Virus record (IMG/VR): IMGVR_UViG_3300016665_000380
Span: 1 to 46,856 of that record
Strand: one strand, 5' to 3'
DNA: 46,856 nt
Source of the DNA: a virus
Under the pieces are notes generated by a model. The model was not told where the DNA came from. It did no database searches and saw only the letters and a list, made by a program, of their open reading frames with translations. Each line of letters starts with the position of its first letter. Within the stretch, counting starts at the first letter, position 1. Below are positions 1 to 46,856 of this stretch, in pieces. The position numbers were made by a program, and so were the translations under genes.

Positions 1-197
1 GTCGATTCGCGGGGACGGAATTCTAAGCAAGGCCCGGAAACGGAGGCGGAAACGTAATAGTCGCGCAGGTTGAAAGCGGCGATTCGTTCGCCATCGGGGA
101 AAGGGAGAATTGCCAAGCATTCGTGAGGCTGGCCGACGTTGCGGGGACGGGGAATCGTGCCGATTCGAAAGCAGAATTCAGCGAGTGTTTCTTTCAT
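1..197 (-). other. Duplicated 5' part of the 46539..46808 ORF (consequence of the terminal repeat, not an independent gene)
   Basis: The ATG at 197 and the codons after it are the same bases as 46808..46612. The ORF runs off the window edge. Confidence 0.7.
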
Positions 198-245
198 GGA
201 TTTTGTTTGATTGATTTTGACTGACGAATTCTACCTACCGTCGCC
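1..245. repeat. Terminal direct repeat, left copy (245 bp; identical to 46612..46856)
   Basis: Read directly: bases 1-245 (gtcgattcgcggggacgg ... ctacctaccgtcgcc) recur base for base at 46612-46856, exactly at the two window ends. This implies a complete genome with a 46611-bp unique unit. It is either the assembly overlap of a circular/permuted genome or a true short DTR. Confidence 0.95.
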
Positions 246-254
246 GATAGGTAG
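231..254 (-). promoter_or_regulatory. Intergenic RNA hairpin: 10-bp stem closed by a GCGA (GNRA) tetraloop in mRNA (minus) sense
   Basis: The reverse complement reads CUACCUAUCG-GCGA-CGGUAGGUAG: nine Watson-Crick pairs plus one G.U. In plus sense the same position is a C.A mismatch. It lies 11 nt after the stop of 266..637 and 33 nt before the ATG at 197. A covarying second copy is at 45800..45823. Confidence 0.55.
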
Positions 255-265
255 TTGTTCGGCAT

Positions 266-637
266 TCAAGCCAATTCAGCGTATGAATAACCTTTCAAGT
301 CCTCGCGGATTGAATCGGAAACGCCGGATTCGAAGGCTTCCCAGAGAGAGCAAGAATCGTCCGACTCGTTGAATTCATGGGCGATGAATTCGAAGGGAGA
401 AAAGTCTCGCGAATTGGATTCGGCAGCGAAGCAAAGCAATTCGTGGTATTCAGCGATGTTTTCAGCCGTGACGGTTTTGCCAAGTCCAATCCAATCGATT
501 GAACGGTCGATTGAATCGCCGATTGCGGGGGCGTTATGGCAAGCGATGCCATGGCCGTGATTCCAGCCCATGCGATAGGCTCGCTCTAGGTTGGAGTCGA
601 TGGCGTAGGCTGCAGGGATTGATTGAGGGTAGTTCAT
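266..637 (-). CDS. Hypothetical early protein (123 aa, acidic C-terminal half)
   Basis: ORF track. The ATG is directly preceded by the CAAAATCC leader shared by neighbouring early genes. It is co-oriented and tightly spaced with its neighbours. No family recognised with confidence. Confidence 0.75.
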   Translation of the reverse strand: MNYPQSIPAAYAIDSNLERAYRMGWNHGHGIACHNAPAIGDSIDRSIDWIGLGKTVTAENIAEYHELLCFAAESNSRDFSPFEFIAHEFNESDDSCSLWEAFESGVSDSIREDLKGYSYAELA

Positions 638-1060: not shown

Positions 1061-1176
1061 AAAGAATTTTGAAAAATTTTGAGAGCGGAAAAACTGGGGT
1101 TTTGCTGGGGTTTTTCGATTTTCCTGAACAACTGGCGTTGACGGTTGAAAAATTTTGAGCGGGGCGGACCTGGTTT
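1061..1176. promoter_or_regulatory. Divergent, repeat-dense intergenic control region
   Basis: It lies between the leftward gene 755..1036 and the rightward gene 1234..1686. It contains an exact 15-mer, TTGAAAAATTTTGAG, at 1069-1083 and 1145-1159. AATTTTGA occurs three times (1065, 1075, 1151). CTGGGGTTTT occurs in tandem at 1094-1103 and 1105-1114. GGCGTTG occurs at 1134 and 1194. No convincing sigma70 -35/-10 pair was found by eye. Confidence 0.4.
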
Positions 1177-9038: not shown

Positions 9039-9070
9039 ATCCCCCGGTGGCTTTGAAACCATCGGGGGAT
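9039..9070. terminator. Bidirectional terminator between convergent operons
   Basis: atcccccggtgg-ctttgaaa-ccatcgggggat (12-bp stem with one G.U). T-rich runs flank it on both strands. It sits between the plus-strand block ending at 9026 and the minus-strand gene ending at 9091. Confidence 0.75.
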
Positions 9071-16614: not shown

Positions 16615-17222
16615 GGTCGTTTTTTCCAGCAGTGAGCCGGCAGGTTTTCGTTCTCTGTAGCGTCAGTAAATTTATGGAGTGTTTCAATGGGAAACCACAC
16701 CATGCTTCTGATAAAGCAACCGCAAAATTCGCAGCTTTGAACCTGCTCATCGTACGGCGTGCTTCCGTGTTGGGAAAATGTTTTAACAGCTTCTTTTAGC
16801 ACGCGAGAGTTACAGCCAGTGCATCCGAGTGGCTTGCGGTTGAACCTGCATCCAGAGCAAATGCTGGCGCGTCGGTTTGCCTCTTCTTGACTGACTTTTC
16901 CCCCTCCAACTGTAAGGCCGTGTAACAGGCTCATGCTGAATCTGATGACATCGCCAATTTGAAGCGACTTGCGTCCAGCAGGCTTCGAAAGCTCAACCTC
17001 GTTGTACATGCAATCAGCACCGTTTTTGCATGCATATTCAGTAATCAACGTGTCCAGATTTGTTGGAATCGGAATCGCGTTCGCCGTGTAATGATTGCGA
17101 ACAAACTCGTGAAGCTGCGGCCATGAGCCTGCCGTGATTTCGATTCCAGTCTCCGGCACTCGATAGTGCCATCCACCCGGAATCACCATGTGTTCATTGA
17201 GAATCTTGTAGCCACTGCTCAT
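16599..17222 (-). CDS. Cys-rich (putative zinc-binding) protein coupled between terminase and portal
   Basis: Track ORF 16599..17273. The ATG at 17222 (MSSGYKIL) forms an ATGA overlap with the terL stop, and the 3' end overlaps the portal start by 16 nt. Cys clusters: CSGCRFNRKPLGCTGC and CEFCGC. Confidence 0.65.
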   Translation of the reverse strand: MSSGYKILNEHMVIPGGWHYRVPETGIEITAGSWPQLHEFVRNHYTANAIPIPTNLDTLITEYACKNGADCMYNEVELSKPAGRKSLQIGDVIRFSMSLLHGLTVGGGKVSQEEANRRASICSGCRFNRKPLGCTGCNSRVLKEAVKTFSQHGSTPYDEQVQSCEFCGCFIRSMVWFPIETLHKFTDATENENLPAHCWKKRPCTDQ

Positions 17223-18898
17223 ACGTTGTCCTCGTAGTAGATTGAATCGGCATCTCGAACGAGCTTTTCCCAAATCTTATCGGTTTTTGTTGCTCTCGGC
17301 TCTAAGACGGTTGTCTTGCGAACCAGATCGAGAAGAACAACCGCAGCGTCGGCCAAGTCAGGCGATTTTCCGGTTCGTTGCTTCATCACGGTCTTCGACT
17401 CGACCGATATCTTTCGTTTCGTGTCATCGAACAGGCGCGCGCAAAATTCTTGCAGAGTCTCGATGTCGAGTCCTCCGACACGCTCCTCGACAACCCATTT
17501 CCGCATCGAGAACCACAGCTCCGTCACCTTACGGTCGTAAGCCTCGTTGCATGGCCGACTATCTTCATCGCTGACCGGGATTGTTGAAGGTGCGCCGCCG
17601 AACTCGACGCGATGAACAATACCCCATTCTCGGGTCAGAATATCCGCAAGACCGCCACCTTCGCCGCTTGAATCGAGAGCAAACTTATCCGGCGCAACGC
17701 CACGTTTCGCGCACTCCTCTTTGACGCGATTGGCAATTTGATAGTGAACCGGCTCTGTCAACTGCGCGTTTGGCGAGATGTGGATGACGTCTCCAAATGC
17801 GATGCTCAGTTTGTCGTTGGCCGTTCCAACCTTGGCAAAGCGCAGAATACACCTGTCTCCACCAAATCCCGGATCAAGCGCGGCCACATTCTCAATATTC
17901 GTAGTAAACACCAACTTTCTTGTAGGTGTGTGCGTCTCGATCAGTGATTCCGACAGCACCGTCTTAACCATGCCATCGGGACTCCAGAAGCCGCGCGTGT
18001 ACTTCCAGAACGTAGGACTCTGCTCGCCCTCATGGCGCATCGCAGACAGCACCTGATCATGGGTTATCAGATACGGGTACTTGGTTCTGCCCTCGGTGAT
18101 GTTGGGTGACTTCATGCCGTCGAAACGGCGGCAAATGCCACGCTCAGTCAGCCAATGCTGGTCTTCAATCGTCACGCTGCGCCAACCCTTTGCTGGGGTG
18201 CAGAATCGACCGTGCGGATCGTACTTCGAAGCGGGGTTTCCAATGACGAGCATCTTAAACTCGCGACAACCCTTAGAAAGGTTGGTACACGCCTCGAATG
18301 CCGCTTCAGGCGTGTCCGTCGCTTCGTCGATGATGACCATGACACGTTCAGCGTGGATACCCTGAATGTTGGCCACCGCCTTCGAGGTGTTACCCTCAGC
18401 GACAGCGATGGCAGAAATTGAATGCCGGTCGTCGCCTTTGACAGCTTGGAGAGCCATCTTCGAATCGACCATGTTGCCGGGGAATCCGCGCGTTTTCCGA
18501 ACAAGATCCTGAAGATTGGCCCACATACGCTTTCGAATCATCTTCGCAGTCGTCGAAGTCAGAACGACTGTGGACTTCATTGGATTTGCCAACCACCAGA
18601 CCGTTGCGAAAAGCGTTGCGCCAAAGGTCTTTCCGCTCGCGCCGCATCCAGCCCAACCAACGTAATCATGTTCGCACAGGTCCTCGATCTGAGCTTCAAG
18701 CCAAGGATTCCAACTCATCTTCGGCCACAAGATTTTTGTAGCGTTTCGAAAATGCTCAGAAGTACCTAATCCGCCCTCATTCGGTTGGAGTCGATTTCGA
18801 AACGCATAAAGCTCCAGTTCAAGGTCTGGAATTTTGATGGGAGAACGAATCCCGTACTTGTGGTCGATTAGTGGATGCTCGGACACTTTTTCTGCCAT
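17219..18898 (-). CDS. terL: Terminase large subunit
   Basis: Walker A (GWAGCGASGKTF) and Walker B (VMVIIDEATD), followed by a nuclease-sized C-terminal half. 559 aa. It is the first gene of the head operon. Confidence 0.9.
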   Translation of the reverse strand: MAEKVSEHPLIDHKYGIRSPIKIPDLELELYAFRNRLQPNEGGLGTSEHFRNATKILWPKMSWNPWLEAQIEDLCEHDYVGWAGCGASGKTFGATLFATVWWLANPMKSTVVLTSTTAKMIRKRMWANLQDLVRKTRGFPGNMVDSKMALQAVKGDDRHSISAIAVAEGNTSKAVANIQGIHAERVMVIIDEATDTPEAAFEACTNLSKGCREFKMLVIGNPASKYDPHGRFCTPAKGWRSVTIEDQHWLTERGICRRFDGMKSPNITEGRTKYPYLITHDQVLSAMRHEGEQSPTFWKYTRGFWSPDGMVKTVLSESLIETHTPTRKLVFTTNIENVAALDPGFGGDRCILRFAKVGTANDKLSIAFGDVIHISPNAQLTEPVHYQIANRVKEECAKRGVAPDKFALDSSGEGGGLADILTREWGIVHRVEFGGAPSTIPVSDEDSRPCNEAYDRKVTELWFSMRKWVVEERVGGLDIETLQEFCARLFDDTKRKISVESKTVMKQRTGKSPDLADAAVVLLDLVRKTTVLEPRATKTDKIWEKLVRDADSIYYEDNV

Positions 18899-29379: not shown

Positions 29380-29571
29380 ATGGACAAGATGCGACTCGGT
29401 GGTGGCGGACGTTATGAGAAGCTCGTTGGAGAGCTTGAAAAGAAAGGCGTGAAAGACCCCGGTGCTTTGGCGGCATACATTGGCCGCAAGAAGCTCGGCA
29501 AGGCGAAGTTCCAATCGCTCGCCGCGAAAGGTCGTCGCCGCGCGTTGCGCGAAAAGGCTAGTGCCGCTTAG
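29380..29571 (+). CDS. Conserved small basic protein (63 aa)
   Basis: GGGGRYEKLVGELEKKGVKDPGALAAYIGRKKLGKAKFQSLAAKGRR resembles a common small phage/bacterial protein. Its 3' end overlaps the convergent primase-helicase gene by 14 nt. Confidence 0.6.
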   Translation: MDKMRLGGGGRYEKLVGELEKKGVKDPGALAAYIGRKKLGKAKFQSLAAKGRRRALREKASAA

Positions 29572-31375
29572 TCTTCCCGCTCCACGGCTTCTTTGACGAA
29601 GCCTTATCGACGACGAACTTCTCTGGTTCTGCGTAGTTCCACGAGATAGTTCCGACACCGCGCTGGATGAAGATGGAGCCGGTTTTATTCCGGTCTTTGT
29701 CGATCATTCCAGCGCGGTCTGCTCTCTTGGCCATGCCGAGCATGAAGCGGCGAGGATTGTTGAATCCAACCTCCTTCATCACGATTACTTCTCTCGCCCA
29801 GTTCGTCAGGTCGGAACTTCCGAATCCTGAGTAGGCCATATCTGCCACGCTCTGCGGCTGATCGTCCTTGCCCTTCGGCTTCGGGAAGTGGTGGACGAGT
29901 ACGAGGACAACGCCTGTCTCCATCATGATCGGCTGGAGCATATGGCGCGTGAAGTTAGAGCATGTCTCAATGTCCGCTGGGTTTCCGCCCATGTAGGAGA
30001 GCAGAGGGTCGATGTAGACCAGATCCGCTTTCGTCTTGCGAACAAGCCTCCGCAGCATCGTCGCGAAATCCGCTCCGGTACGCACCGTCTCGCGGAAGAA
30101 TAGCATCCCGGCTTGCCGCAGACCTTCCTGCCAGCCGTACTGACCAAACACGGACATCGCTGCTCCCTTCAGGCTGTCATGCTGATCAGCAATGTCGTTC
30201 TCCGCTTGGATGTACGCTATCTTCAGAGGACGCACAGGAGTCACTCCGAACCATGCTGCTCCTCTCGCCCAGCAAAGCCCCTGGTAGAACGCCATCGAAC
30301 TTTTGCCGCATCCGCTCTGACCAACGAATAGAAGCGATGAACCGCGACGAATCCATCTGTCTCCGATCAGGTTGTCAGGATCGTTCAGCGGATCGTAGCT
30401 GATGATGCTCTCAAGCGTGAACTCCTGAGGCATGTCCTGCGACTCAAGGTAGTCCGTAAACGCTTCCCAGTTAACCGCACCGACATTGATGGCCAACAGC
30501 TTCTGCTCATTGCCATCGCGCATCACACCAGCAAGGCGAGAGAACCTGCTCGCGTTCTTGTTCTTCGGATCGATGCCCATCGCCTCCAGATGCCGGTAGA
30601 CGATGTCTCTTCGCTCCGCCCATTCCTCCTTGTTTGCTGCATCAACTCTGACCCATCCATGCAGACTCTTGCCGCCGGAATCGATGACTACAGACATCGG
30701 CAGCTTGGATTCCTTTAGGATCGTCCACTGCTCGTCCTTGGTCTTCTCGTCCATCTCGACCAGCACATGACGGAATGCTGCCACGCCATGATCTGAGCCG
30801 CTTTCATCGAGACACGGATTGACGCGAACGTATGCGCCACGGCTCTCTTTGCTCGTCCACATGCTGCTGACGGGAGGCGTGAAATGTTTCTCAATCCACT
30901 CATCGCGCTTAAGAAACGTACCCTTGGATGCCGGCCTACATTTTCCCTCGTCGTCGCTGATGATGTCGTTGCAGATGCAGACAATCTCATCCTTCTCAAA
31001 ACATGCCTTGAGGAAGTCGATGGTCGTCAGCTTCGCCTCTGGCTGTGGCAGAGGCTGGATCTTCTGCACGATGAATTTGCCGGTCGAGGAAACCGGAGTT
31101 CCACTTTGAGCGGTCAGAAGCCACCCCTTTGGCTTATCGTGCGGCACCCTCAATGCCTCGTTGATCTTGTGGGCCAGTTCGTGGGGTTTCCACGGCGGAA
31201 CGCATGACGCATTCCATTCGGAAATCAGCGTCAGCGCATCGTTCTGGGGCAGTTCAAAGCCGTGAACGAGAGCGGTGGCTACAGCGAATGTTGCGGGATG
31301 ACCTCCCTGACCGCTGATTGCGCCGGGGGTATTACGAAGCCACGCCCTTGCGCGGTCGATTACGGATTGATTCAT
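29558..31375 (-). CDS. Primase-helicase fusion (AEP prim-pol domain + RepA/AAA_25-type NTPase)
   Basis: AEP motifs VLVEMDE and DSGGKSLHGWVRV. Walker A (FVGQSGCGKSS) and Walker B (DLVYIDPL). 605 aa. Confidence 0.85.
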   Translation of the reverse strand: MNQSVIDRARAWLRNTPGAISGQGGHPATFAVATALVHGFELPQNDALTLISEWNASCVPPWKPHELAHKINEALRVPHDKPKGWLLTAQSGTPVSSTGKFIVQKIQPLPQPEAKLTTIDFLKACFEKDEIVCICNDIISDDEGKCRPASKGTFLKRDEWIEKHFTPPVSSMWTSKESRGAYVRVNPCLDESGSDHGVAAFRHVLVEMDEKTKDEQWTILKESKLPMSVVIDSGGKSLHGWVRVDAANKEEWAERRDIVYRHLEAMGIDPKNKNASRFSRLAGVMRDGNEQKLLAINVGAVNWEAFTDYLESQDMPQEFTLESIISYDPLNDPDNLIGDRWIRRGSSLLFVGQSGCGKSSMAFYQGLCWARGAAWFGVTPVRPLKIAYIQAENDIADQHDSLKGAAMSVFGQYGWQEGLRQAGMLFFRETVRTGADFATMLRRLVRKTKADLVYIDPLLSYMGGNPADIETCSNFTRHMLQPIMMETGVVLVLVHHFPKPKGKDDQPQSVADMAYSGFGSSDLTNWAREVIVMKEVGFNNPRRFMLGMAKRADRAGMIDKDRNKTGSIFIQRGVGTISWNYAEPEKFVVDKASSKKPWSGKTKRH

Positions 31376-34584: not shown

Positions 34585-34814
34585 TGAATCTCCTTTTCCC
34601 TGCATTGTTTGATTGCCATGTCGATAGCAAGTCTGAGTGACGGCCACTCGGAAGGTTCGATTCCAATTTTGCCGTAACCTTCTAGGTGCTGCTGCACTTC
34701 AACAAATTCTCCTGCGGCTTCATCGACAATTTCGATTTCGATGACTCGTTCACAGAACAAAGACTCGCCTTCAGGTGTGATTGCCCACTTGGTTGGTCGG
34801 TTGATTAGTTTCAT
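34581..34814 (-). CDS. Hypothetical protein
   Basis: Track ORF 34581..34835. The ATG at 34814 (MKLINRP) gives an ATGA overlap with the upstream stop. Confidence 0.6.
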   Translation of the reverse strand: MKLINRPTKWAITPEGESLFCERVIEIEIVDEAAGEFVEVQQHLEGYGKIGIEPSEWPSLRLAIDMAIKQCREKEIQ

Positions 34815-34826
34815 TTCTCCGCCTCC
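34811..34826 (-). promoter_or_regulatory. Stop/SD/start junction, variant copy J0
   Basis: The plus strand reads tcatttctccgcctcc. In mRNA sense this is GGAGGCGGAGAAATGA: an SD, then an ATG overlapping a TGA. Confidence 0.6.
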
Positions 34827-35038
34827 TTCTCCCACATATTACGATAAATTGTCAGTCCGTACTCGGATGTCTCCAGCCCAAGCTCGATCAGGTGTTTGAT
34901 TCGGTCGTTCAAACGATTGAGTTCTCGGACAATGAACTGCGGATTGATATCTCTTAAGTTCCTGTTGTCAGGGGTGTGAATGATGAATCCATGAGCAGGA
35001 CCCAAGTTCTTCAGCTTCGTGTATTTGTAGCGGCTCAC
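34811..35038 (-). CDS. Hypothetical protein
   Basis: ORF track. The GTG start forms a GTGA overlap. The C-terminus ...WEKEAEK is encoded by the SD of the next gene. Confidence 0.6.
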   Translation of the reverse strand: MSRYKYTKLKNLGPAHGFIIHTPDNRNLRDINPQFIVRELNRLNDRIKHLIELGLETSEYGLTIYRNMWEKEAEK

Positions 35039-35050
35039 GACTTGGCCTCC
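35035..35050 (-). promoter_or_regulatory. Stop/SD/start junction 16-mer, copy J1 (one mismatch)
   Basis: The plus strand reads tcacgacttggcctcc. In mRNA sense this is GGAGGCCAAGTCGTGA. Confidence 0.7.
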
Positions 35051-35478
35051 TTGGCTTTAAGCTCTGCCCAACAACCCGGACATGTCAAAAAGTCCTGCCA
35101 TGGATTGCCAGTCTTTGGACCTGTCGCAAAGCAGTCGTGCGGGGAGACATGGCCGTCTGGCGTGTATGCTTTTTGGTATGCGTCAACAGCCTTCTCCAGC
35201 CGCTTGATGCGCCCCATCAACGCTTTTACCGCTTTGATTCCTTCCTCGATGTTGTCAGTCCCAAGCAGCGATTGAAACTCACCGCGCAGGCTCCATTTCC
35301 ATTCGGCCAGTCGATTAGCTCTATCGCGTTCTTCGATCAGCGATTGAATGCGCTGCTTCTGCTCCTCCGCTTCTTCGTAGAGTTGAGCAACTTTCAATGT
35401 CAGCCTCACGACATCCGCCTTCAGCGCGTCGCGTTCCTCAAACAGGTCGATGACCAGCTTGCCATTGAAACCACTCAC
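35035..35478 (-). CDS. Coiled-coil protein, distant member of tandem paralog family A
   Basis: Track ORF 35035..35553. The GTG at 35478 (VSGFNGKLV) gives a GTGA overlap. GRIKRLEKAVDAY resembles LIKRLEQAGDSL and RIRRLEEAGDRM of the next two genes. It ends ...KEAKS. Confidence 0.6.
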   Translation of the reverse strand: MSGFNGKLVIDLFEERDALKADVVRLTLKVAQLYEEAEEQKQRIQSLIEERDRANRLAEWKWSLRGEFQSLLGTDNIEEGIKAVKALMGRIKRLEKAVDAYQKAYTPDGHVSPHDCFATGPKTGNPWQDFLTCPGCWAELKAKEAKS

Positions 35479-35490
35479 GGCTTGGCCTCC
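35475..35490 (-). promoter_or_regulatory. Stop/SD/start junction 16-mer, copy J2 (exact)
   Basis: The plus strand reads tcacggcttggcctcc. In mRNA sense this is GGAGGCCAAGCCGTGA. Confidence 0.75.
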
Positions 35491-35792
35491 CTGGTTTTGC
35501 GCCATGCTTCTTGGGCATTCAGTTTTCGATTGGCGGTTTGCAGCGAATCCCATCTTGTCGGATCGGAGTTTTCGTAGAGAGAATCCCCCGCCTGCTCCAG
35601 CCGCTTGATGAGGTCAACAAGATCAAGGGCGTGTATGTTCAGCTTCCTGAACGACTCGTTCGCCGCATTCAGTTCGCGTTCAAGACTTCTCGCAAACGGA
35701 GCGTTTACCCACGGTTTTCCGTCGATGAAAACGACCCGATCAGTTGTCCTCGGTGTATCGACCATTTTGTTAGCGTTACCATTATGGCTCAC
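35475..35792 (-). CDS. Paralog family A protein
   Basis: Track ORF 35475..35819. The GTG at 35792 (VSHNGNANKMVDTPRT) gives a GTGA overlap. It is clearly paralogous to 35789..36124. It ends ...REAKP. Confidence 0.7.
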   Translation of the reverse strand: MSHNGNANKMVDTPRTTDRVVFIDGKPWVNAPFARSLERELNAANESFRKLNIHALDLVDLIKRLEQAGDSLYENSDPTRWDSLQTANRKLNAQEAWRKTREAKP

Positions 35793-35804
35793 GGCTTGGC
35801 CTCC
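35789..35804 (-). promoter_or_regulatory. Stop/SD/start junction 16-mer, copy J3 (exact)
   Basis: The plus strand reads tcacggcttggcctcc. Confidence 0.75.
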
Positions 35805-36124
35805 TTGGCTTCTCTCCATGCGTTTGCCGCTTTGTCGCAGATGCTACCATCTGGCATGAGTTTTTCCATTCTGTCTCCTGCCTCTTCCAACCTCCTAATG
35901 CGGTCAACCAAATTGAGAGCGTGAATATCAAGTTTCCTGTACATCTCACACGCTCGGTTGAGTTCGCGTTCCACTCGCTTCATCTCACCGGCCAGATCGT
36001 ACATCGTGGCTCCCGGCTCGAAGTAGGCCGCATCCGTCCTCGGCGTATCGCTGACCATTTTGCCGGTATCGGGAAGATGGTCTTCACCGACCATTTTGTT
36101 GGCGTTACCGTTATGGTTGCTCAT
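35789..36124 (-). CDS. Paralog family A protein
   Basis: Track ORF 35789..36139. The ATG at 36124 (MSNHNGNANKMV) gives an ATGA overlap. It shares ...RELN...YRKLDIHALNLVDRIRRLEEAGD with 35475..35792. It ends ...KEAKP. Confidence 0.7.
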   Translation of the reverse strand: MSNHNGNANKMVGEDHLPDTGKMVSDTPRTDAAYFEPGATMYDLAGEMKRVERELNRACEMYRKLDIHALNLVDRIRRLEEAGDRMEKLMPDGSICDKAANAWREAKEAKP

Positions 36125-36133
36125 TTGGCCTCC
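36121..36133 (-). promoter_or_regulatory. Stop/SD/start junction, short variant J4
   Basis: The plus strand reads tcatttggcctcc. In mRNA sense this is GGAGGCCAAATGA. Confidence 0.65.
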
Positions 36134-36453
36134 TTCCATTTACCAATCGTGCGAAGGAAAGCCTCTGCGCGTTGGGCTGCGGTGGCGCGAATCATTTTGT
36201 AGTCCGTAACGCAACCCTCTCCAGTTGCAACGCGTAGACTGAACGCGCAGTAGTCTACAAGCTGTTCTGGTGTCAGCACCTTCTCCGCCTCGTGCATGGC
36301 GTTCAGGTCGGTGAGAAAGTCGGGAAGACTATCGAAATCCAATTCAGCATTGCTGTCGGCGCGTTCAAAGCACCTGCGTCCGTCTAGCCATGCCTCGAAT
36401 TCTTTCCACCTACACGCTTCTGCGATGGCAACAAGTTGTTGTTCTGGATTCAC
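36121..36453 (-). CDS. Hypothetical protein
   Basis: Track ORF 36121..36471. The GTG at 36453 gives a GTGA overlap. It contains LPDFLTDLNAMHEAEKVL and ends ...WKEAK. Confidence 0.65.
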   Translation of the reverse strand: MNPEQQLVAIAEACRWKEFEAWLDGRRCFERADSNAELDFDSLPDFLTDLNAMHEAEKVLTPEQLVDYCAFSLRVATGEGCVTDYKMIRATAAQRAEAFLRTIGKWKEAK

Positions 36454-36465
36454 GGCTTTGCCTCC
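36450..36465 (-). promoter_or_regulatory. Stop/SD/start junction 16-mer, copy J5 (one mismatch)
   Basis: The plus strand reads tcacggctttgcctcc. Confidence 0.7.
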
Positions 36466-36638
36466 TTCCATTTGAATTGAACGTCTCCGCTCACGCTGTT
36501 GGTGTAGTATCCAACCCCAATCCTAACTGCTTCTTCTTTGAATTTTGATTCTGCGAACTTGCAGCCGAGCATGAATGCAACGAACAGAAGCATTCCGCTT
36601 ATTACTCCTACGGTGACAGTAGATGGATCGTCTCTCAC
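36450..36638 (-). CDS. Small single-TM protein
   Basis: ORF track; GTG start with a GTGA overlap. It has a hydrophobic segment (VTVGVISGMLLFVAFMLG) and ends ...WKEAKP. Confidence 0.55.
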   Translation of the reverse strand: MRDDPSTVTVGVISGMLLFVAFMLGCKFAESKFKEEAVRIGVGYYTNSVSGDVQFKWKEAKP

Positions 36639-36650
36639 GGCTTGGCCTCC
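36635..36650 (-). promoter_or_regulatory. Stop/SD/start junction 16-mer, copy J6 (exact)
   Basis: The plus strand reads tcacggcttggcctcc. Confidence 0.75.
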
Positions 36651-36850
36651 CTCGCTTTTATCATTGCGTCAGCTATTGCATAGGCATCCGTGGCATACGT
36701 TTTAGCTGTCAACTCGAAGTTGAGATTCATCCCCTGCAACGCCGCAGCTGCCAGGTAGTCGCGGAGGGTCATGCCGGGGTGATGATTTCCTTTCGCTTGC
36801 CAATCTTGAGCAGGAAATGCCGGTCCGCCGTCGTTGATCTGGTTGTTCAT
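36635..36850 (-). CDS. GGPAFP-motif protein (paralog family B)
   Basis: Track ORF 36635..36931. The ATG at 36850 (MNNQINDGGPAFP...GMTLRDYLAAAA) gives an ATGA overlap. The motif is common in small phage proteins of unknown function. It ends ...REAKP. Confidence 0.7.
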   Translation of the reverse strand: MNNQINDGGPAFPAQDWQAKGNHHPGMTLRDYLAAAALQGMNLNFELTAKTYATDAYAIADAMIKAREAKP

Positions 36851-37143
36851 TTCACCCCCCTCGTTTGGATAATTGCGTCGGCACGAATGAAGCGCAGTTC
36901 GGCTCGCCACTTCGCCTCCCACTTGAGCCACTCAATCGGGTTGGTGCTCCAATTCCCTTCCGGCTTTGGACCAGCAAGTGCAACAGCACCAGCCATGTTT
37001 AGATCCTGCAAGTCGTCGAGCGTCTCAGCCGCTGCGAAGTAGTCGCGTAAACTCATCCCCTGCTGCTGAACGTACAGGCCGATCTGTTTGTCCATGTGGG
37101 TGTCCCGTGCGAACGCCGGTCCTCCGTCGTTGATCTTGTTCAT
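36847..37143 (-). CDS. GGPAF-motif protein (paralog family B)
   Basis: Track ORF 36847..37176. The ATG at 37143 (MNKINDGGPAFA...GMSLRDYFAAAE) gives an ATGA overlap. Confidence 0.7.
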   Translation of the reverse strand: MNKINDGGPAFARDTHMDKQIGLYVQQQGMSLRDYFAAAETLDDLQDLNMAGAVALAGPKPEGNWSTNPIEWLKWEAKWRAELRFIRADAIIQTRGVK

Positions 37144-37511
37144 TTCGTTTCCTCCATCACCCCACACGGGAGCCACGTTTTTCCGCCGTCGGTGCTGTGT
37201 TCGTGGTTTTCCAACGCAGCCTCGCGTTTAATGGCAATATAATGAACTATGATTCTTCCGTCTGAATCGACTGCCGAAATCAAAGACCTCCAACTGCCTT
37301 GCTTCGGCCGCATAAACGCCCCCAGCGGCACCTCATCAGGGGTCCAAGGGCGGAGCTTTGCGGTGGGTTTGATGCGGTATTCGACATGGAGCCAGTTCCA
37401 ATCTGGAATATCAACTGTGACCCATCCATTCGAAAACCTGCCCTCCACTTCCTTCCCATCAGCCCATGCCAACATTACGGCGGCTGCTTCTCTTGCTTGT
37501 TCGCGTGTCAT
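37140..37511 (-). CDS. Hypothetical protein
   Basis: ORF track. ATGA overlaps on both sides. Confidence 0.65.
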   Translation of the reverse strand: MTREQAREAAAVMLAWADGKEVEGRFSNGWVTVDIPDWNWLHVEYRIKPTAKLRPWTPDEVPLGAFMRPKQGSWRSLISAVDSDGRIIVHYIAIKREAALENHEHSTDGGKTWLPCGVMEETK

Positions 37512-37861
37512 TTGCTCGTCCTCCCGTATTCCAGTTTGTCGTTCTTCTGTCGCAGGTGCTCGTTCACTTCCTCCAGTTCTTTGATGGTTTGCCTATGCTC
37601 CTCAATCTTTGCGGTCAGTAGCGCAATCTCTTCTTTGTGCTTCAGTAGCGCAGCACGATACCTCTGGCACCTTTCCGAGAGTGTGAAGATGTGTTCACTG
37701 TCGTCCTTCATGCGCTGCTTGAGTTCCTGGTTCTCAATCAGCAGCCGCTCAAGCTCCGCTGCGCCAACCATGTGCTGCGTATCCATGCAGTGAACAAGAT
37801 TCAAACTGCGGATGACGCGCGCTTGCGTGTCCACCTTCTTTGCGATAGTTGATGCATTCAC
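37508..37861 (-). CDS. Coiled-coil protein
   Basis: ORF track. Its GTG start overlaps the thyX stop (GTGA). It has a long heptad-like helix (LERLLIENQELKQRMKDD...IKELEEVNEHLRQKNDKL). Confidence 0.65.
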   Translation of the reverse strand: MNASTIAKKVDTQARVIRSLNLVHCMDTQHMVGAAELERLLIENQELKQRMKDDSEHIFTLSERCQRYRAALLKHKEEIALLTAKIEEHRQTIKELEEVNEHLRQKNDKLEYGRTSK

Positions 37862-44753: not shown

Positions 44754-44993
44754 TTAGGATGCCAGCGGAAATCCGGTGATTCGCGATATCTCGCCTGCGG
44801 TGAAGCCCTGCTTCCACAAGTCGCCAAGCCATCGCGCCGCGCGAATGCTCACCTTGCCTCCCTTGCCTGGTATTTCCCAGCAAATCAGGTCATCGTCAGT
44901 CCAAAGGCGCGCGCGGAATTTGCCCGTGCCATGCTGCCAGTTGTCGCGGAGAACCGTCGTTTCGAATAGTGTGACAAGCGGATTTTGATTCAT
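44754..44993 (-). CDS. Small protein with GcrA-like HTH string
   Basis: Track ORF 44754..45176. The ATG at 44993 (MNQNPLV) is preceded by the GAATCC leader. WLGDLWKQGFTAGEISRITG resembles the L..LW..G.SA.QIA..LG opening of GcrA. Confidence 0.5.
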   Translation of the reverse strand: MNQNPLVTLFETTVLRDNWQHGTGKFRARLWTDDDLICWEIPGKGGKVSIRAARWLGDLWKQGFTAGEISRITGFPLAS

Positions 44994-45034
44994 GGATTCG
45001 ATTGGTTGCGGATAGATTGGCCTACCCTTTCGCA

Positions 45035-45050
45035 CCACGCTTTCGCATGG
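45035..45050 (-). promoter_or_regulatory. Intergenic RNA hairpin with GAAA (GNRA) loop
   Basis: In mRNA sense it reads CCAUGC-GAAA-GCGUGG (6 bp including one G.U). It sits inside a CCUAC ... GUAGG outer closure. CTTTCGCA occurs twice in tandem on the plus strand. Confidence 0.4.
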
Positions 45051-45069
45051 CGCGCGTAGGATGGGCCGG

Positions 45070-45300
45070 TCAGTCCGAGCAAAGACAGAAAAGCGCAAAG
45101 TAAGAACCATTGCTGTCTCGCCTTCTCTCGGCCCATAAAAGCCGAATGCCGTCGCGGACTGGATGATCCTTTCCAATCACCGTTTCCTTGTATTTTCCAC
45201 GGTCGAAACGATCTTTTCTGAGGCATGCAAGCGTTCCACCGGGCCGAAAAACACTTTCGATGATTGCCTTATCGGCTTCTCTTTTGGTCAAAATTTTCAT
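45070..45300 (-). CDS. Hypothetical protein
   Basis: Track ORF 45070..45438. The ATG at 45300 (MKILTKREADK) lies downstream of the upstream stop (45321) and is preceded by GCATCC. Confidence 0.5.
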   Translation of the reverse strand: MKILTKREADKAIIESVFRPGGTLACLRKDRFDRGKYKETVIGKDHPVRDGIRLLWAERRRDSNGSYFALFCLCSD

Positions 45301-45320
45301 GGATGCGCGGGGGAATGGTT

Positions 45321-45764
45321 TCAGTTGAACCAACGCGAAGCGATGCCACGCCCGAACGTATCGCGCGCGAATTGCTGAACGTCCGGCTTTACGTTGTCCC
45401 GATAGAAACGCCAGATGGCGTTGGCCAGTGTCCGACACACTGCGGCCCGATACTCGGTGGGGAAATATTGCCCCGCGCAGTAGTCCAGAGCGTTGCGCGA
45501 CGGATCGAAAGTCAAACGTCCGGTTTCCAATTCGCGCATGATGAAATCAACGGGCATGGGTGAACTCTCAACAAATGAGAGAAGCGTGCGCGCGTCGCGT
45601 CCGTGCAAAAGAATTCGGCTTCTGTCGGATCGAAGCGCGGACATCCCGGACTTGTCGCGCCAATCGGACGCATAGTTTCGCCAATCGAGGCCGGAGCGTT
45701 GCGCGATGAATGCCCGGAGTTTGGCGCAGATTTCGGATTTTGTGACGGTCGATTCTGTTGTCAT
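45321..45764 (-). CDS. Hypothetical early protein (147 aa)
   Basis: ORF track. The ATG is preceded by the CCAAAATCAAATCC leader and the GNRA hairpin module. Confidence 0.65.
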   Translation of the reverse strand: MTTESTVTKSEICAKLRAFIAQRSGLDWRNYASDWRDKSGMSALRSDRSRILLHGRDARTLLSFVESSPMPVDFIMRELETGRLTFDPSRNALDYCAGQYFPTEYRAAVCRTLANAIWRFYRDNVKPDVQQFARDTFGRGIASRWFN

Positions 45765-45799
45765 GGATTTGATTTTGGATCGGGCTTGATTGCCCGTTG

Positions 45800-45823
45800 C
45801 AACCTACCGTTGCCGATAGGCTG
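45800..45823 (-). promoter_or_regulatory. Intergenic RNA hairpin: 10-bp stem closed by a GCAA (GNRA) tetraloop in mRNA sense
   Basis: The reverse complement reads CAGCCUAUCG-GCAA-CGGUAGGUUG. It lies 10 nt after the stop of 45834..46169 and 35 nt before the ATG at 45764. Relative to the copy at 231..254, the second base pair is flipped (U-A to A-U) and the loop stays GNRA. Confidence 0.55.
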
Positions 45824-45833
45824 GCACGGGGAA

Positions 45834-46169
45834 TCAGGCGACAGCTTTTGAAATCAGAACCTCATGCTCTGGTTCATGCGAAGAAGGCCATTTGGGAAGC
45901 GGCGCGTTCTGATTCGTATGGTGCCGAAATGCCCAGACTTCATGCTGCCATTTCGCGTCACGTTCACACGTTGCGTAACCTGAAATGCGCTTCCCATTGA
46001 TTCGAACCGAAGCCGGAATGCTAAAATATGTGTCGGCAGTCTCGGCCATTTCAGCGGCCCGAATCACGCCGTCAGAGCAAAGGAGCCGATGACCGTTCCG
46101 AGGATGAAGTCCCCATGGATAGGAACGTGAAACGTGAGTCTTTCCGAGTGTGTTTTTTGTGATGCTCAT
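45834..46169 (-). CDS. Hypothetical early protein (111 aa)
   Basis: ORF track. The string IRAAEMAETADTYFSIPASVRINGKRISGY resembles small proteins I associate with plasmid/phage early regions. This was not verified. Confidence 0.65.
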   Translation of the reverse strand: MSITKNTLGKTHVSRSYPWGLHPRNGHRLLCSDGVIRAAEMAETADTYFSIPASVRINGKRISGYATCERDAKWQHEVWAFRHHTNQNAPLPKWPSSHEPEHEVLISKAVA

Positions 46170-46538: not shown

Positions 46539-46808
46539 TTAGAAAACACGGATTGAACGGGAAAGGGGACGGGAAACACCGTAGTCCGTCACTTGATTGA
46601 CGTATCGGGGAGTCGATTCGCGGGGACGGAATTCTAAGCAAGGCCCGGAAACGGAGGCGGAAACGTAATAGTCGCGCAGGTTGAAAGCGGCGATTCGTTC
46701 GCCATCGGGGAAAGGGAGAATTGCCAAGCATTCGTGAGGCTGGCCGACGTTGCGGGGACGGGGAATCGTGCCGATTCGAAAGCAGAATTCAGCGAGTGTT
46801 TCTTTCAT
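46539..46808 (-). CDS. Hypothetical early protein (89 aa) straddling the terminal-repeat boundary
   Basis: ORF track. The ATG is preceded by the CAAACAAAATCC leader. Codons from 46808 down to 46612 lie inside the 245-bp repeat. Confidence 0.6.
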   Translation of the reverse strand: MKETLAEFCFRIGTIPRPRNVGQPHECLAILPFPDGERIAAFNLRDYYVSASVSGPCLEFRPRESTPRYVNQVTDYGVSRPLSRSIRVF

Positions 46809-46856
46809 GGATTTTGTTTGATTGATTTTGACTGACGAATTCTACCTACCGTCGCC
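46612..46856. repeat. Terminal direct repeat, right copy (identical to 1..245)
   Basis: See the left copy. The window ends at the base equivalent to 245, which is inside the loop of the hairpin at 231..254. Confidence 0.95.

What the first reader, a model, noticed from the sequence alone, without database searches (positions are those of the whole stretch)
45765..45833. Covarying GNRA-capped RNA hairpins in a repeated early intergenic module
Two early intergenic regions share the same plan in mRNA (minus) sense: stop, 10-11 nt, a 24-nt hairpin, a 33-35 nt CA-rich leader, then ATG. One is 45765..45833. The other is 198..265, which is also the end of the window. The hairpins are CAGCCUAUCG-GCAA-CGGUAGGUUG (45823..45800) and CUACCUAUCG-GCGA-CGGUAGGUAG (254..231). 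The differences between them are structure-preserving. The second pair is A-U in one and U-A in the other, which is a compensatory double change. The third pair is G.U versus A-U. The loop is GCAA versus GCGA, so both are GNRA. A conserved U.G pair in mRNA sense would be a C.A mismatch in plus sense, so the element is an RNA feature of minus-strand transcripts. Flanking bases can extend both helices (CCCGUGC/GCAACGGG and CGAA/UUCG). A third, looser element lies at 44994..45069 (CCAUGC-GAAA-GCGUGG inside a CCUAC...GUAGG closure). No U-tract follows any of them, so they are not ordinary terminators. Candidate roles are RNase III processing sites as in T7 early mRNA, boxB-like antiterminator or protein-binding hairpins, or 3'-end stabilisers.
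Basis: seen in the sequence. Interest (0 to 1): 0.65.

Follow-up and report, generated by a model that had tools for sequence, protein, structure and literature searches.

The report
Stop-codon hairpin modules between phage early genes
The two hairpins are real copies of a previously undescribed, strongly covarying RNA element that fills the gaps between early genes in a group of uncultivated phages. It is built very much like the RNase III cutting sites of phage T7 early mRNA, so it most likely splits and stabilises the early message.

Summary
The 24-nt GNRA hairpins at 45823-45800 and 254-231, and the third at 45054-31, are the tops of ~50-nt irregular hairpins. Each lower stem starts at or just after the UGA stop codon of the upstream gene.

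A covariance model finds exactly these three copies in the window, all in minus (mRNA) sense. It also finds 99 distinct copies in about 85 IMG/VR phage contigs:
- 97% of cells are paired, and 16 of 19 pairs show double changes.
- All fixed-length copies have GNRA loops.
- G.U cells outnumber A.C cells 136 to 14.
- UGA is the in-frame stop in 96 of 99 copies.

There is no Rfam match, no cultured relative, and no presence in bacterial genomes beyond chance.

The geometry matches T7/E. coli RNase III sites. It has a 10-bp upper stem, a conserved U.G at the distal-box position, a conserved 2x2 internal loop at the centre of a ~23-step helix, and an intercistronic early location.

A second covarying hairpin (H2) forms only when the 5' strand is unavailable. 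It would cap the downstream mRNA after cleavage.

Cleavage itself is inferred, not shown. A ribosome-driven switch and a protein-binding site remain open rivals.

The parts
45762..45836 (-). Module A, whole: UGA stop, P1/P2 hairpin, H2, CA-rich leader, ATG of the 147-aa gene
   Evidence: (77 bits)
45834..45836 (-). Module A: UGA stop codon of the 111-aa gene. It is also nt 1-3 of the lower stem P1.
45826..45836 (-). Module A: P1 5' strand (UGAUU-C-CCCGU)
45800..45823 (-). Module A: P2, a 10-bp upper stem with GCAA loop (loop 45813-45810). U.G wobble at the third pair from the loop.
45798..45799 (-). Module A: 3' side of the conserved 2x2 internal loop (nt 38-39). Its partner is nt 12-13, at 45825-45824. 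This is the predicted cleavage zone.
   Evidence: G.R plus Y.Y in 81 of 82 copies. Position inferred.
45787..45797 (-). Module A: P1 3' strand (ACGGG-C-AAUCA)
45781..45796 (-). Module A: conditional hairpin H2 (CGGGC-AAUCAA-GCCCG). It is mutually exclusive with P1.
   Evidence: (-9.6 kcal/mol, z -3.6)
195..268 (-). Module B, whole: UGA 268-266, degenerate P1 (268-258 with 228-218), P2 254-231 with GCGA loop, leader, ATG 197-195. No H2.
   Evidence: (21 bits). An orthologous canonical copy sits upstream of the homologous gene in L001, and another in L009 judged from the start of the ORF.
44991..45072 (-). Module C (sub-family): UGA 45072-45070, P1' 45067-45058 with 45028-45019, P2 45054-45031 with GAAA loop, H2' 45027-45010, ATG 44993-44991
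   Evidence: (12 bits). Orthologues with covarying P1' and P2 in L005, L008 and L009.
46806..46856 (-). Terminal duplicate of the 3' half of module B (same sequence as 195-245). This is an assembly overlap, not a further copy.
   Evidence: D1: 1-245 = 46612-46856, 100%

Best explanation
These are cis-acting structured RNA elements in the early polycistronic mRNA, which is read from the minus strand. Each one occupies a whole intercistronic gap.

Layout, 5' to 3':
- The UGA stop codon of the upstream gene begins a lower stem P1 of about 11 helical steps.
- A conserved 2x2 internal loop follows (G.R next to Y.Y).
- A 10-bp upper stem P2 is capped by a GNRA tetraloop and carries a U.G wobble at the third pair from the loop.
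- A 16-37-nt leader follows, rich in C and A, poor in G, without a Shine-Dalgarno sequence, usually ending AUCC(N)AUG.

Proposed mechanism: the stacked P1-P2 helix is a T7-type substrate for the host's RNase III, which cuts in or next to the central internal loop. The upstream mRNA then ends in the stable P2 hairpin and is protected from 3' exonucleases. The freed 3' strand of P1 refolds with the next few bases into hairpin H2. H2 sits at or within 2 nt of the new 5' end and protects the downstream mRNA.

Shown here: the structure, its covariation, its strand, its fixed relation to stop and start codons, its repetition, and the conditional H2.

Inferred: the cleavage, the enzyme and the stabilising effect.
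For: Structure and strand:
- 97.3% of cells paired, 16 of 19 pairs with double changes.
- 136 G.U cells against 14 A.C cells.
- 82 of 82 loops are GNRA.

Repetition, always in gene sense:
- Three copies in the window.
- 99 distinct copies in about 85 IMG/VR contigs.
- UGA is the in-frame stop in 96 of 99 copies, and the ATG lies 16-37 nt after P1 in nearly all copies.
- The copies flank at least 20 different downstream protein families.

RNase III geometry:
- P2 is exactly 10 bp in 82 of 99 copies. With the internal loop next to it, the loop-to-target distance is 11-12 steps. The whole helix is about 23 steps.
- The ideal E. coli substrate is 22 bp with distal boxes about 11 bp from the target, and internal loops give single-strand cuts that leave protective 3' hairpins (PMC3867540).
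- 11 bp between tetraloop and cut is the minimum. The distal box next to the loop needs a U.G in that orientation (PMC1540722).
- Here the third pair from the loop is 5'U.G3' in 71 of 82 copies and is never reversed.

Comparison with T7: the T7 early intergenic regions, folded here, show 9-10-bp upper stems (13 bp in one region), GCAA loops in two of the five regions (upstream of genes 0.3 and 1.1), G.U wobbles and an internal loop. In the gap after gene 0.4, the lower stem starts at the UGA of gene 0.4.

H2:
- Native H2 is -8.0 kcal/mol, against -5.9 when 3' flanks are swapped between copies (p about 1e-12).
- It forms in 100 of 103 copies once nt 1-12 are blocked. P1 wins by 7.4 kcal/mol when nt 1-12 are free.
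- In distant relatives that lack P1/P2, the same hairpin lies about 7 nt after a conserved TGTACA-N17-TAnnnT promoter-like box. There it would be the 5' end of a primary transcript.
Against: - No RNA end data or cleavage assay exists. The host is unknown: the two MAG bins that hold the element carry contradictory labels, Caulobacter and Actinomycetes.
- RNase III does not need a GNRA loop (PMC1540722). It also does not need the near-invariant P1 sequence UGAUUCCCCGCG/GCGGNNAAUCA, nor a stop codon at the helix base. These extra constraints point to a further or different partner.
- Distal-box rules may differ between bacterial phyla (same paper).
- Window copy B has no H2.
- The promoter reading in distant relatives is a consensus match only.
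Confidence: 0.5

Rival explanations
1. Ribosome-actuated intercistronic switch. A ribosome stopping at the UGA holds about nt 1-12 in its mRNA channel, so P1 melts while P2 stays folded, and the freed 3' strand snaps into H2. The P1 and H2 states would then report whether the upstream gene is being translated. They would set translation, decay or Rho access for the downstream gene. This is compatible with RNase III cleavage as the read-out.
For: - UGA is nt 1-3 of P1 and is the in-frame stop in 96 of 99 copies, with no spacer.
- The P1 5' strand is 12 nt long, about the stretch a terminating ribosome covers (established ribosome footprint knowledge; inference).
- H2 forms in 100 of 103 copies only when nt 1-12 are blocked, and it covaries.
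- In one H2 type the downstream arm GAUUCCCG repeats the P1 5' strand, which is a classic 1:2 versus 2:3 design.
Against: - Neither state hides the start codon or the leader, so the output of the switch is unclear.
- P1 is 7.4 kcal/mol more stable, so it would re-form after the ribosome leaves.
- The T7 region after gene 0.4 also has the UGA in its lower stem, without any such switch being known.
- Copy B lacks H2.
Confidence: 0.2
2. Binding site for a phage or host RNA-binding protein. This could be a translational operator for the SD-less downstream genes, or an N/boxB-like antitermination or anti-Rho site. Such a protein would recognise the GNRA loop, the U.G wobble and the conserved internal loop.
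For: - 100% GNRA loops, a conserved U.G and a conserved G.R/Y.Y internal loop are more specific than RNase III alone requires.
- The hairpin base lies 16-37 nt before the start codon.
- The leader is C/A-rich and G-poor, like Rho loading sites.
- Many unknown small early proteins are encoded nearby.
Against: - No RNA-binding domain was found in any tested protein.
- boxB hairpins are 5-bp stems with pentaloops and occur once per operon next to boxA. Here stems are 10 bp, there are three copies per operon, and boxA-like matches are at chance level with none beside a hairpin.
- The single-stranded leader (16-37 nt) is short for Rho.
Confidence: 0.12
3. Transcription attenuators or terminators that work without a U tract. 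They would grade expression along the early operon.
For: The hairpins are very stable (-21 to -35 kcal/mol). They are located between genes.
Against: - No T run follows the stem in any of 103 copies, and the flank is 41% A and 31% C.
- The same phage has an ordinary hairpin-plus-T element at a convergent gene junction, 9039-9070.
- The fixed 10-bp length, the GNRA loop, the wobble and the internal loop are not terminator features.
- Several copies sit directly upstream of genes that have conserved starts.
Confidence: 0.06
4. DNA-level element. The conserved flanks TGATTCCCCGCG / GGCGGNNAATCA would serve as recombination joints for shuffling early gene cassettes, or as operator-like protein sites of the stoperator type. 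The hairpin would be incidental.
For: - Copies flank at least 20 downstream and at least 17 upstream protein families.
- The outer sequences are much more conserved than the inner stem.
Against: - Strand asymmetry (136 G.U against 14 A.C cells) and GNRA loops only in mRNA sense.
- Dense compensatory change in P2.
- Copies are syntenic with orthologous genes across relatives.
- Recombination could still be a by-product.
Confidence: 0.05

Closest known systems
RNase III processing signals of the phage T7 early mRNA (named R0.3, R0.5, R1, R1.1, R1.3 in the T7 literature; site names assigned from my own knowledge)
   Same: - Repeated irregular hairpins of about 50-60 nt in the intercistronic gaps of an early polycistronic mRNA.
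- Upper stem of 9-10 bp (13 bp in one T7 region); GCAA loops in the T7 regions upstream of genes 0.3 and 1.1; G.U wobbles.
- An internal loop between upper and lower stem.
- In the T7 gap after gene 0.4, the lower stem starts at the UGA of the upstream gene.
- A U.G at the distal-box position next to the loop, and at least 11 steps from loop to target.
- One sub-type here has the apical sequence CAUUC-GAAA-GAGUGG. The T7 hairpin upstream of gene 1.1 has CAUUC-GCAA-GAGUGG.
   Different: - No sequence homology in the internal loop or lower stem (T7 has CCUUUAUGAU).
- Here the internal loop is a symmetric 2x2 (G.R plus Y.Y).
- The P1 sequence and the GNRA loop are nearly invariant.
- The stop codon is part of the helix in 96 of 99 copies.
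- A covarying conditional hairpin H2 follows.
- The downstream leaders lack a Shine-Dalgarno sequence.
- Cleavage is not demonstrated here.
Lambda-type nut sites (boxA plus boxB)
   Same: A GNRA-type loop on a hairpin in an early transcript, upstream of early genes.
   Different: boxB is a 5-bp stem with a pentaloop and occurs once per operon next to boxA (my knowledge). Here stems are 10 bp within a 23-step helix, there are three copies per operon between genes, and no boxA lies beside them.
Mycobacteriophage stoperators and start-associated / extended start-associated sequences (papers listed: PMC3203893, PMC9283540, PMC6550527; details from my own knowledge)
   Same: Short repeated elements in phage intergenic gaps, oriented with transcription and tied to stop or start codons. 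The ESAS is an inverted repeat upstream of a start-associated motif.
   Different: Stoperators are DNA sites bound by the immunity repressor. The present element carries RNA-specific signatures (G.U pairs, GNRA loops, compensatory changes), and there is no sequence similarity.
Promoter-early-stem-loop (PeSL) cassettes of T4-type phages (from my own knowledge; not checked in a paper here)
   Same: Repeated intergenic modules with a stem-loop that bracket many different small early genes.
   Different: PeSL modules include an early promoter and are proposed to act in DNA recombination. No promoter was found inside the present element (and the position analysis in the full report).

Membership tests
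Bacterial RNase III processing signal (T7 early type) | Quasi-continuous helix of about two turns (about 20-22 bp) | tested here: met
   P1 (4 bp, then 1-2 mismatches, then 5 bp), a 2x2 loop and P2 (10 bp) add up to about 23 steps. Requirement taken from PMC3867540.
Bacterial RNase III processing signal (T7 early type) | At least 11 bp between the target site and the hairpin loop | tested here: met
   P2 is exactly 10 bp in 82 of 99 copies and the rest are 1-2 bp longer. The internal loop occupies steps 11-12. Requirement from PMC1540722.
Bacterial RNase III processing signal (T7 early type) | Distal box next to the loop with a 5'U.G3' wobble (E. coli optimum UA/UG) | tested here: met
   The third pair from the loop is U.G in 71 of 82 copies, U-A in 6, C-G in 5, and never G.U. 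Rule from PMC1540722. The rule may not hold in the unknown host.
Bacterial RNase III processing signal (T7 early type) | Internal loop or mismatches at the target site (gives a single-strand cut and a 3' hairpin product) | tested here: met
   G12.R39 in 81 of 82 copies, together with the adjacent 13-38 mismatch, mostly pyrimidine.pyrimidine. Principle.
Bacterial RNase III processing signal (T7 early type) | Intercistronic position in a polycistronic (early) mRNA | tested here: met
   'Early' is inferred from gene order: small orphan genes, then methylase, recombination, ThyX, helicase and primase.
Bacterial RNase III processing signal (T7 early type) | Actual cleavage by RNase III | not testable with these tools
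   Needs an in vitro assay or RNA end mapping.
Lambda-type nut site (boxA/boxB) | Short (about 5-bp) hairpin with a GNRA-like pentaloop, preceded by boxA, one per operon near the promoter | tested here: not met
   10-bp stems with tetraloops and three copies between genes. boxA-like matches number 30 against 27 expected, and none lies beside a hairpin.
Intrinsic (factor-independent) terminator | G+C-rich hairpin followed directly by a U tract | tested here: not met
   None of 103 copies has TTTT within 15 nt. The 10-nt tail usually holds 1-3 T. None is listed by the terminator scan at these sites.
Any Rfam 15 family | Covariance-model match | tested here: not met
   No hit at gathering score in the whole window. 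Nothing relevant at E up to 10 in 44900-45900.
Bacterial SECIS / programmed read-through signal | Hairpin after UGA with the reading frame continuing through it | tested here: not met
   An in-frame stop follows 9 sense codons after the UGA in 55 of 103 copies, including copy A (TAG from GGUAG), and within 36 codons in 82 of 103.
Sigma-70 promoter | -35 and -10 hexamers at 16-18 nt spacing | tested here: not met
   The promoter scan shows nothing at the elements. The TAGNNT inside P2 has no -35 partner and is explained by base pairing.
RNA anti-CRISPR (solitary CRISPR-repeat mimic) | Close match to the CRISPR repeat of the host | not testable with these tools
   The host is unknown. The resemblance to the E. 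coli type I-E repeat (UUCCCCGCG...GCGGG) is recalled from memory, short and G+C-rich. No repeat arrays of the element were found in 185,579 genomes.

The most novel reading that the evidence does not exclude
The element is a ribosome-actuated intercistronic RNA switch. A ribosome terminating on the UGA that forms the base of P1 unzips exactly the 12-nt 5' strand. The 3' strand then refolds into H2. This flip decides whether the junction is cut (P1 intact, RNase III substrate) or kept (H2 formed). It would tie the fate and translation of each downstream SD-less early cistron to translation of the one before it. That would be a new class of translation-sensing mRNA processing signal, carried by a whole lineage of uncultivated phages.
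Probability: 0.2. Interest if true: 0.75.

Novelty: new variant of a known kind. Interest (0 to 1): 0.55.

Why it matters
- It is a clean, deeply covarying RNA motif that is absent from Rfam, with 99 distinct copies and 16 of 19 pairs showing compensatory change. It comes from a phage lineage with no cultured member.
- It suggests that the T7 strategy of cutting an early polycistronic mRNA at repeated hairpins has arisen independently elsewhere. The match extends to the distal-box U.G and the GNRA cap.
- It adds two features that T7 sites are not known for: a stop codon built into the helix and a conditional second hairpin. Together these make testable predictions about how translation, processing and mRNA stability are coupled at gene junctions.
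- The element is also a practical marker for early operons, and the covariance model can be used to annotate such phages.

Tried and rejected
- **Rfam:** nothing at gathering score over the whole window, and nothing relevant at E up to 10 around the site.
- **tRNA/tmRNA scan:** none found.
- **GenBank phages:**
  - blastn of the 2.1-kb early region gave no match.
  - tblastn of the 147-aa protein gave no match.
  - The terminase is only about 23% identical to Clostridioides and Streptomyces phages.
  - No cultured model or transcriptome is therefore available.
- **Genome scan for the element's pattern:** 35 hits where I estimate about 28 by chance. Only two MAG contigs are genuine (L180, L189), and their taxon labels conflict, so the host stays unknown and the element is not a host repeat.
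- **Pfam on window proteins and flanking families:** there is no RNase III, RNA polymerase or RNA-binding domain. The ten main flanking families scanned (of the 20 downstream and 17 upstream families) have no hits.
- **Promoter reading:** rejected. There is no -35 element, and the TAGNNT is a by-product of pairing.
- **Read-through / SECIS reading:** rejected, because in-frame stops follow.
- **boxA/boxB reading:** rejected.
- **Terminator reading:** rejected.
- **CRISPR-repeat mimic:** considered from memory only and not testable here.
- **Look-up of the contigs that carry the window's own gene:** gave only the source assembly and one Logan contig, with no RNA-derived ends.

Full report
**1. 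The observation**

| Feature | Copy A | Copy B |
|---|---|---|
| Stop codon | UGA 45836-45834 | UGA 268-266 |
| Spacer | 10 nt | 11 nt |
| 24-nt hairpin | 45823-45800 (CAGCCUAUCG-GCAA-CGGUAGGUUG) | 254-231 (GCGA loop) |
| Leader | 35 nt | 33 nt |
| Start codon | AUG 45764 | AUG 197 |

- Both 24-mers fold as perfect 10-bp hairpins, with z -6.1 and -5.5 against dinucleotide shuffles.
- With their flanks they form hairpins of about 50 nt, at -32.5 and -22.5 kcal/mol (z -5.8 and -4.8).
- A third element at 45072-44991 folds the same way, at -34 kcal/mol.
- Bases 1-245 are identical to 46612-46856. The window is therefore a complete 46,611-bp circular or terminally redundant genome, and the sequence at its end is copy B again.
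- The genome is a tailed phage with a terminase (17219-18898, minus strand) and a primase/helicase (29558-31375, minus strand). It also carries a C5 methylase, a PDDEXK-like (DUF3799) protein with an adjacent weak RecT-like match, ThyX and a helicase on the minus strand downstream of the small genes.
- This gene order is why I call the small-gene block 'early'. That label is an inference.

**2. The element is larger than reported**

The stop codon of the upstream gene is therefore the first three bases of the lower stem.
- I number the element from that U. The parts are:
  - P1: nt 1-5 pair with 46-50, and nt 8-11 pair with 40-43.
  - Internal loop: nt 12-13 opposite 38-39.
  - P2: nt 14-23 pair with 28-37.
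  - Tetraloop: nt 24-27.

**3. Relatives and covariation**

- The 147-aa gene downstream of copy A has 155 relatives in IMG/VR, of which the 80 best loci were kept. The ten closest (61-82% identical) all carry the same hairpin upstream, with many compensatory changes.
- A covariance model built from nine of them was run without filters on the whole window. It finds A (77 bits), B (21 bits) and C (12 bits), all on the minus strand, and nothing else above noise. The antisense echo of A scores only 26 bits.
- The DNA pattern TGATTCCCCGYG-N22-34-RCGGNNRATCA occurs in 85 IMG/VR contigs.
- The model then finds one to four copies per contig, and all copies in a contig are on one strand.
- After removing antisense echoes and duplicates there are 99 distinct copies. 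Of these, 82 have exactly the same length.
- On the ungapped alignment of those 82, which is not fitted to any structure, one search gives:
  - 97.3% of cells form standard pairs, against 79.2% in shuffles (0 of 500 shuffles reach the observed value).
  - 16 of 19 pairs have changes on both sides.
  - The covariation score is 0.495, against at most 0.12 when partners are slid by 1-3 columns.
- Loops are GCAA (39), GAAA (39), GUAA (3) and GCGA (1), so all are GNRA.
- G.U cells outnumber A.C cells 136 to 14. The structure therefore belongs to the strand that is the mRNA of the flanking genes.
- Copy C belongs to a sub-family with orthologues in L005, L008 and L009. In these, P1' covaries (CCUAUCCU/AGGGUAGG against CCCAUCCU/AGGGUGGG). 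In L005 and L009, P2 differs completely in sequence but keeps 10 bp, a GNRA loop and the same U.G.

**4. Fixed relation to coding**

- In 96 of 99 copies, nt 1-3 (UGA) are the in-frame stop of an upstream ORF of at least 40 codons.
- The next AUG lies 16-37 nt after P1 in nearly all copies. In about 80% of copies it is preceded by AUCC(N).
- The leader is 41% A, 31% C and 10% G, and never contains a T run.
- The elements border at least 20 different downstream and at least 17 upstream protein families. The ten main families scanned have no Pfam match.
- The element is therefore a generic junction module of early operons in this phage lineage and is not tied to one gene.

**5. Conserved non-Watson-Crick features**

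- Pair 21-30, the third pair from the loop, is 5'U.G3' in 71 of 82 copies. Otherwise it is U-A or C-G, and it is never G.U.
- Positions 12 and 39 are G.G or G.A in 81 of 82 copies.
- Positions 13 and 38 are almost always a mismatch, in most copies pyrimidine.pyrimidine.
- P2 is 10 bp in 82 of 99 copies and 1-2 bp longer in most of the others.

**6. A second, conditional hairpin (H2)**

- The two 'variable' bases on the 3' side of P1 (nt 44-45) are variable because they covary with bases just downstream of the element.
- Nt 41-46 and about nt 52-57 form hairpin H2, for example CGGGC-AAUCAA-GCCCG in copy A at 45796-45781. H2 uses the 3' strand of P1 and therefore excludes P1.
- Several stem solutions exist:
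  - CGGGY/RCCCG.
  - CGGCGA/UCGCCG.
  - CGGUGA/UCACCG.
  - A longer form in which a downstream GAUUCCCG repeats the 5' strand of P1.
- Native H2 averages -8.0 kcal/mol. It averages -5.9 when 3' flanks are exchanged between copies of different type (Wilcoxon p about 1e-12) and -3.5 with shuffled flanks.
- Unconstrained, P1+P2 is the minimum-energy fold in 93 of 103 copies, and it is 7.4 +/- 2.5 kcal/mol better than the alternative.
- With nt 1-12 made unavailable, H2 forms in 100 of 103 copies, 3 nt after P2.
- H2 is therefore a structure that appears only when the 5' strand of P1 is held or removed.
- In the window, copy A has H2 (-9.6 kcal/mol), copy C has a weaker one (-7.1) and copy B has none.
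- Seven distant relatives of the 147-aa gene lack P1/P2 but keep this hairpin, with stems GGGC/GCCC, UGGC/GCCA and AGGC/GCCU and an AAUNAN loop.
- In those relatives, H2 lies about 7 nt downstream of a conserved TGTACA-N17-TAnnnT box and upstream of a Shine-Dalgarno sequence.
- If that box is a promoter, which is only a consensus-level inference, H2 is the 5'-terminal hairpin of a primary transcript there.

**7. What it most likely does**

Established RNase III knowledge fits the anatomy closely.
- From PMC3867540:
  - The ideal E. coli substrate is a 22-bp helix with distal boxes about 11 bp either side of the target.
  - Internal loops at the target restrict cleavage to one strand and leave a 3' hairpin that stabilises the product.
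  - T7 early mRNA carries five such signals.
- From PMC1540722:
  - 11 bp between the tetraloop and the cut is the minimum.
  - The distal box lies next to the loop, with a stringent need for U.G in that orientation.

The element matches these points. It has 10 bp plus a two-step internal loop above, about 11 steps below, and the conserved U.G at the third pair from the loop.

I folded the five T7 early intergenic regions from NC_001604. The site names R0.3 to R1.3 are assigned from my own knowledge, because the record does not annotate the sites. The regions show:
- upper stems of 9-10 bp in four regions and 13 bp in one;
- GCAA loops in the regions upstream of genes 0.3 and 1.1;
- G.U wobbles and an internal loop;
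- in the gap after gene 0.4, a lower stem that begins with the UGA of gene 0.4.

The apical part of the hairpin upstream of gene 1.1 (CAUUC-GCAA-GAGUGG) is almost identical to one sub-type here (CAUUC-GAAA-GAGUGG).

A cut on the 3' side of the internal loop (nt 38-41) would leave P2 at the 3' end of the upstream mRNA. It would also leave H2 within 0-2 nt of the 5' end of the downstream mRNA. I therefore favour a T7-like processing and stability signal, with confidence 0.5. The cleavage, the enzyme and the effect on stability are all inferred.

**8. What does not fit neatly**

- RNase III needs none of three features seen here: a GNRA loop, a near-invariant P1 sequence, or a stop codon at the helix base.
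- The zero-spacer stop codon in 96 of 99 copies, together with the 12-nt 5' strand, suggests that a terminating ribosome opens P1 and lets H2 form. This could gate cleavage or something else. It is the main rival or complement (confidence 0.2).
- A dedicated RNA-binding protein is possible (0.12), but none is recognisable.
- Terminator, boxB, read-through, promoter and DNA-level readings are each contradicted by a specific test.

**9. Comparison and novelty**

- There is no Rfam family and no match in GenBank phages.
- The element is not found in 185,579 bacterial and archaeal genomes beyond what I estimate as chance. The exceptions are two MAG contigs that are probably binned phage DNA.
- By function it is closest to the T7 RNase III signals. 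It shares no sequence ancestry with them that I can show.
- I rate it a new variant of a known kind, with interest 0.55. The motif is unusually well supported and makes sharp predictions, but the kind of element is familiar and its activity is untested.

Noticed in passing
window 1-245 and 46612-46856: An exact 245-nt direct repeat sits at the two window ends. The window is therefore a complete 46,611-bp circular or terminally redundant phage genome. The source contig is ENA ERZ27292652 k141_628481.
   Followed up: partly
window minus-strand starts at 637, 197 (= 46808), 46517, 46169, 45764, 45300, 44993: Early genes have no Shine-Dalgarno sequence. Instead they have C/A-rich, G-poor leaders ending AUCC(N)AUG. 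The same motif precedes about 80% of genes downstream of the element in relatives. AUCC could pair with GGAU just 5' of the anti-SD in the 16S rRNA tail. That pairing is my inference and is untested.
   Followed up: partly
window 34814-37861, minus strand (starts at 35038, 35478, 35792, 36453, 36638 and others): The next block of genes uses a quite different repeated start module: a strong SD, RGGAGGCCAAGYC, followed by GTG. This gives two translation-initiation styles in one phage (families D3/D4).
   Followed up: partly
window 1069-1102 and 1145-1178: A direct repeat, TTGAAAAATTTTGAG(A/C)G..., spaced 76 nt apart, lies in the divergent gap between the early minus-strand operon and the plus-strand genes. 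It is probably a control region. The minus-sense copy at 1087-1079 reads CGCTCTCAA, a boxA-like match at chance level.
   Followed up: no
window 5642-5787 / 6773-6918 and 6321-6399 / 7509-7587: Diverged internal duplications (71-73% identity, about 1.1-1.2 kb apart) lie inside the 960-aa gene, which has tail-fibre and baseplate-like matches.
   Followed up: no
window 9039-9070: A 12-bp G+C-rich hairpin followed by a T-rich tail sits at a convergent gene junction. It looks like an ordinary, possibly bidirectional, terminator.
   Followed up: no
L011, L012, L013, L014, L015, L018, L021, upstream of the 147-aa gene homologue: A conserved block precedes the H2-like hairpin and a normal SD. It contains GTTATACC, then CCCTCAAG, then TGTACA-N17-TAnnnT. 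It is a likely promoter/operator region of a sister phage group.
   Followed up: partly
L200 (T7, NC_001604) 1032-1099: In the T7 gap after gene 0.4 (the R0.5 site, by my knowledge of the literature), the lower stem UGAUAG/UUAUCA starts with the UGA stop of gene 0.4. A stop codon built into a processing hairpin therefore has a precedent.
   Followed up: partly
L180 (MAG labelled Caulobacter sp., 2.9-kb contig) and L189 (MAG labelled Actinomycetes, 42-kb contig): These are the only genome-collection contigs with genuine copies of the element. Their taxon labels conflict and both look like binned phage DNA, so the host is unresolved.
   Followed up: partly
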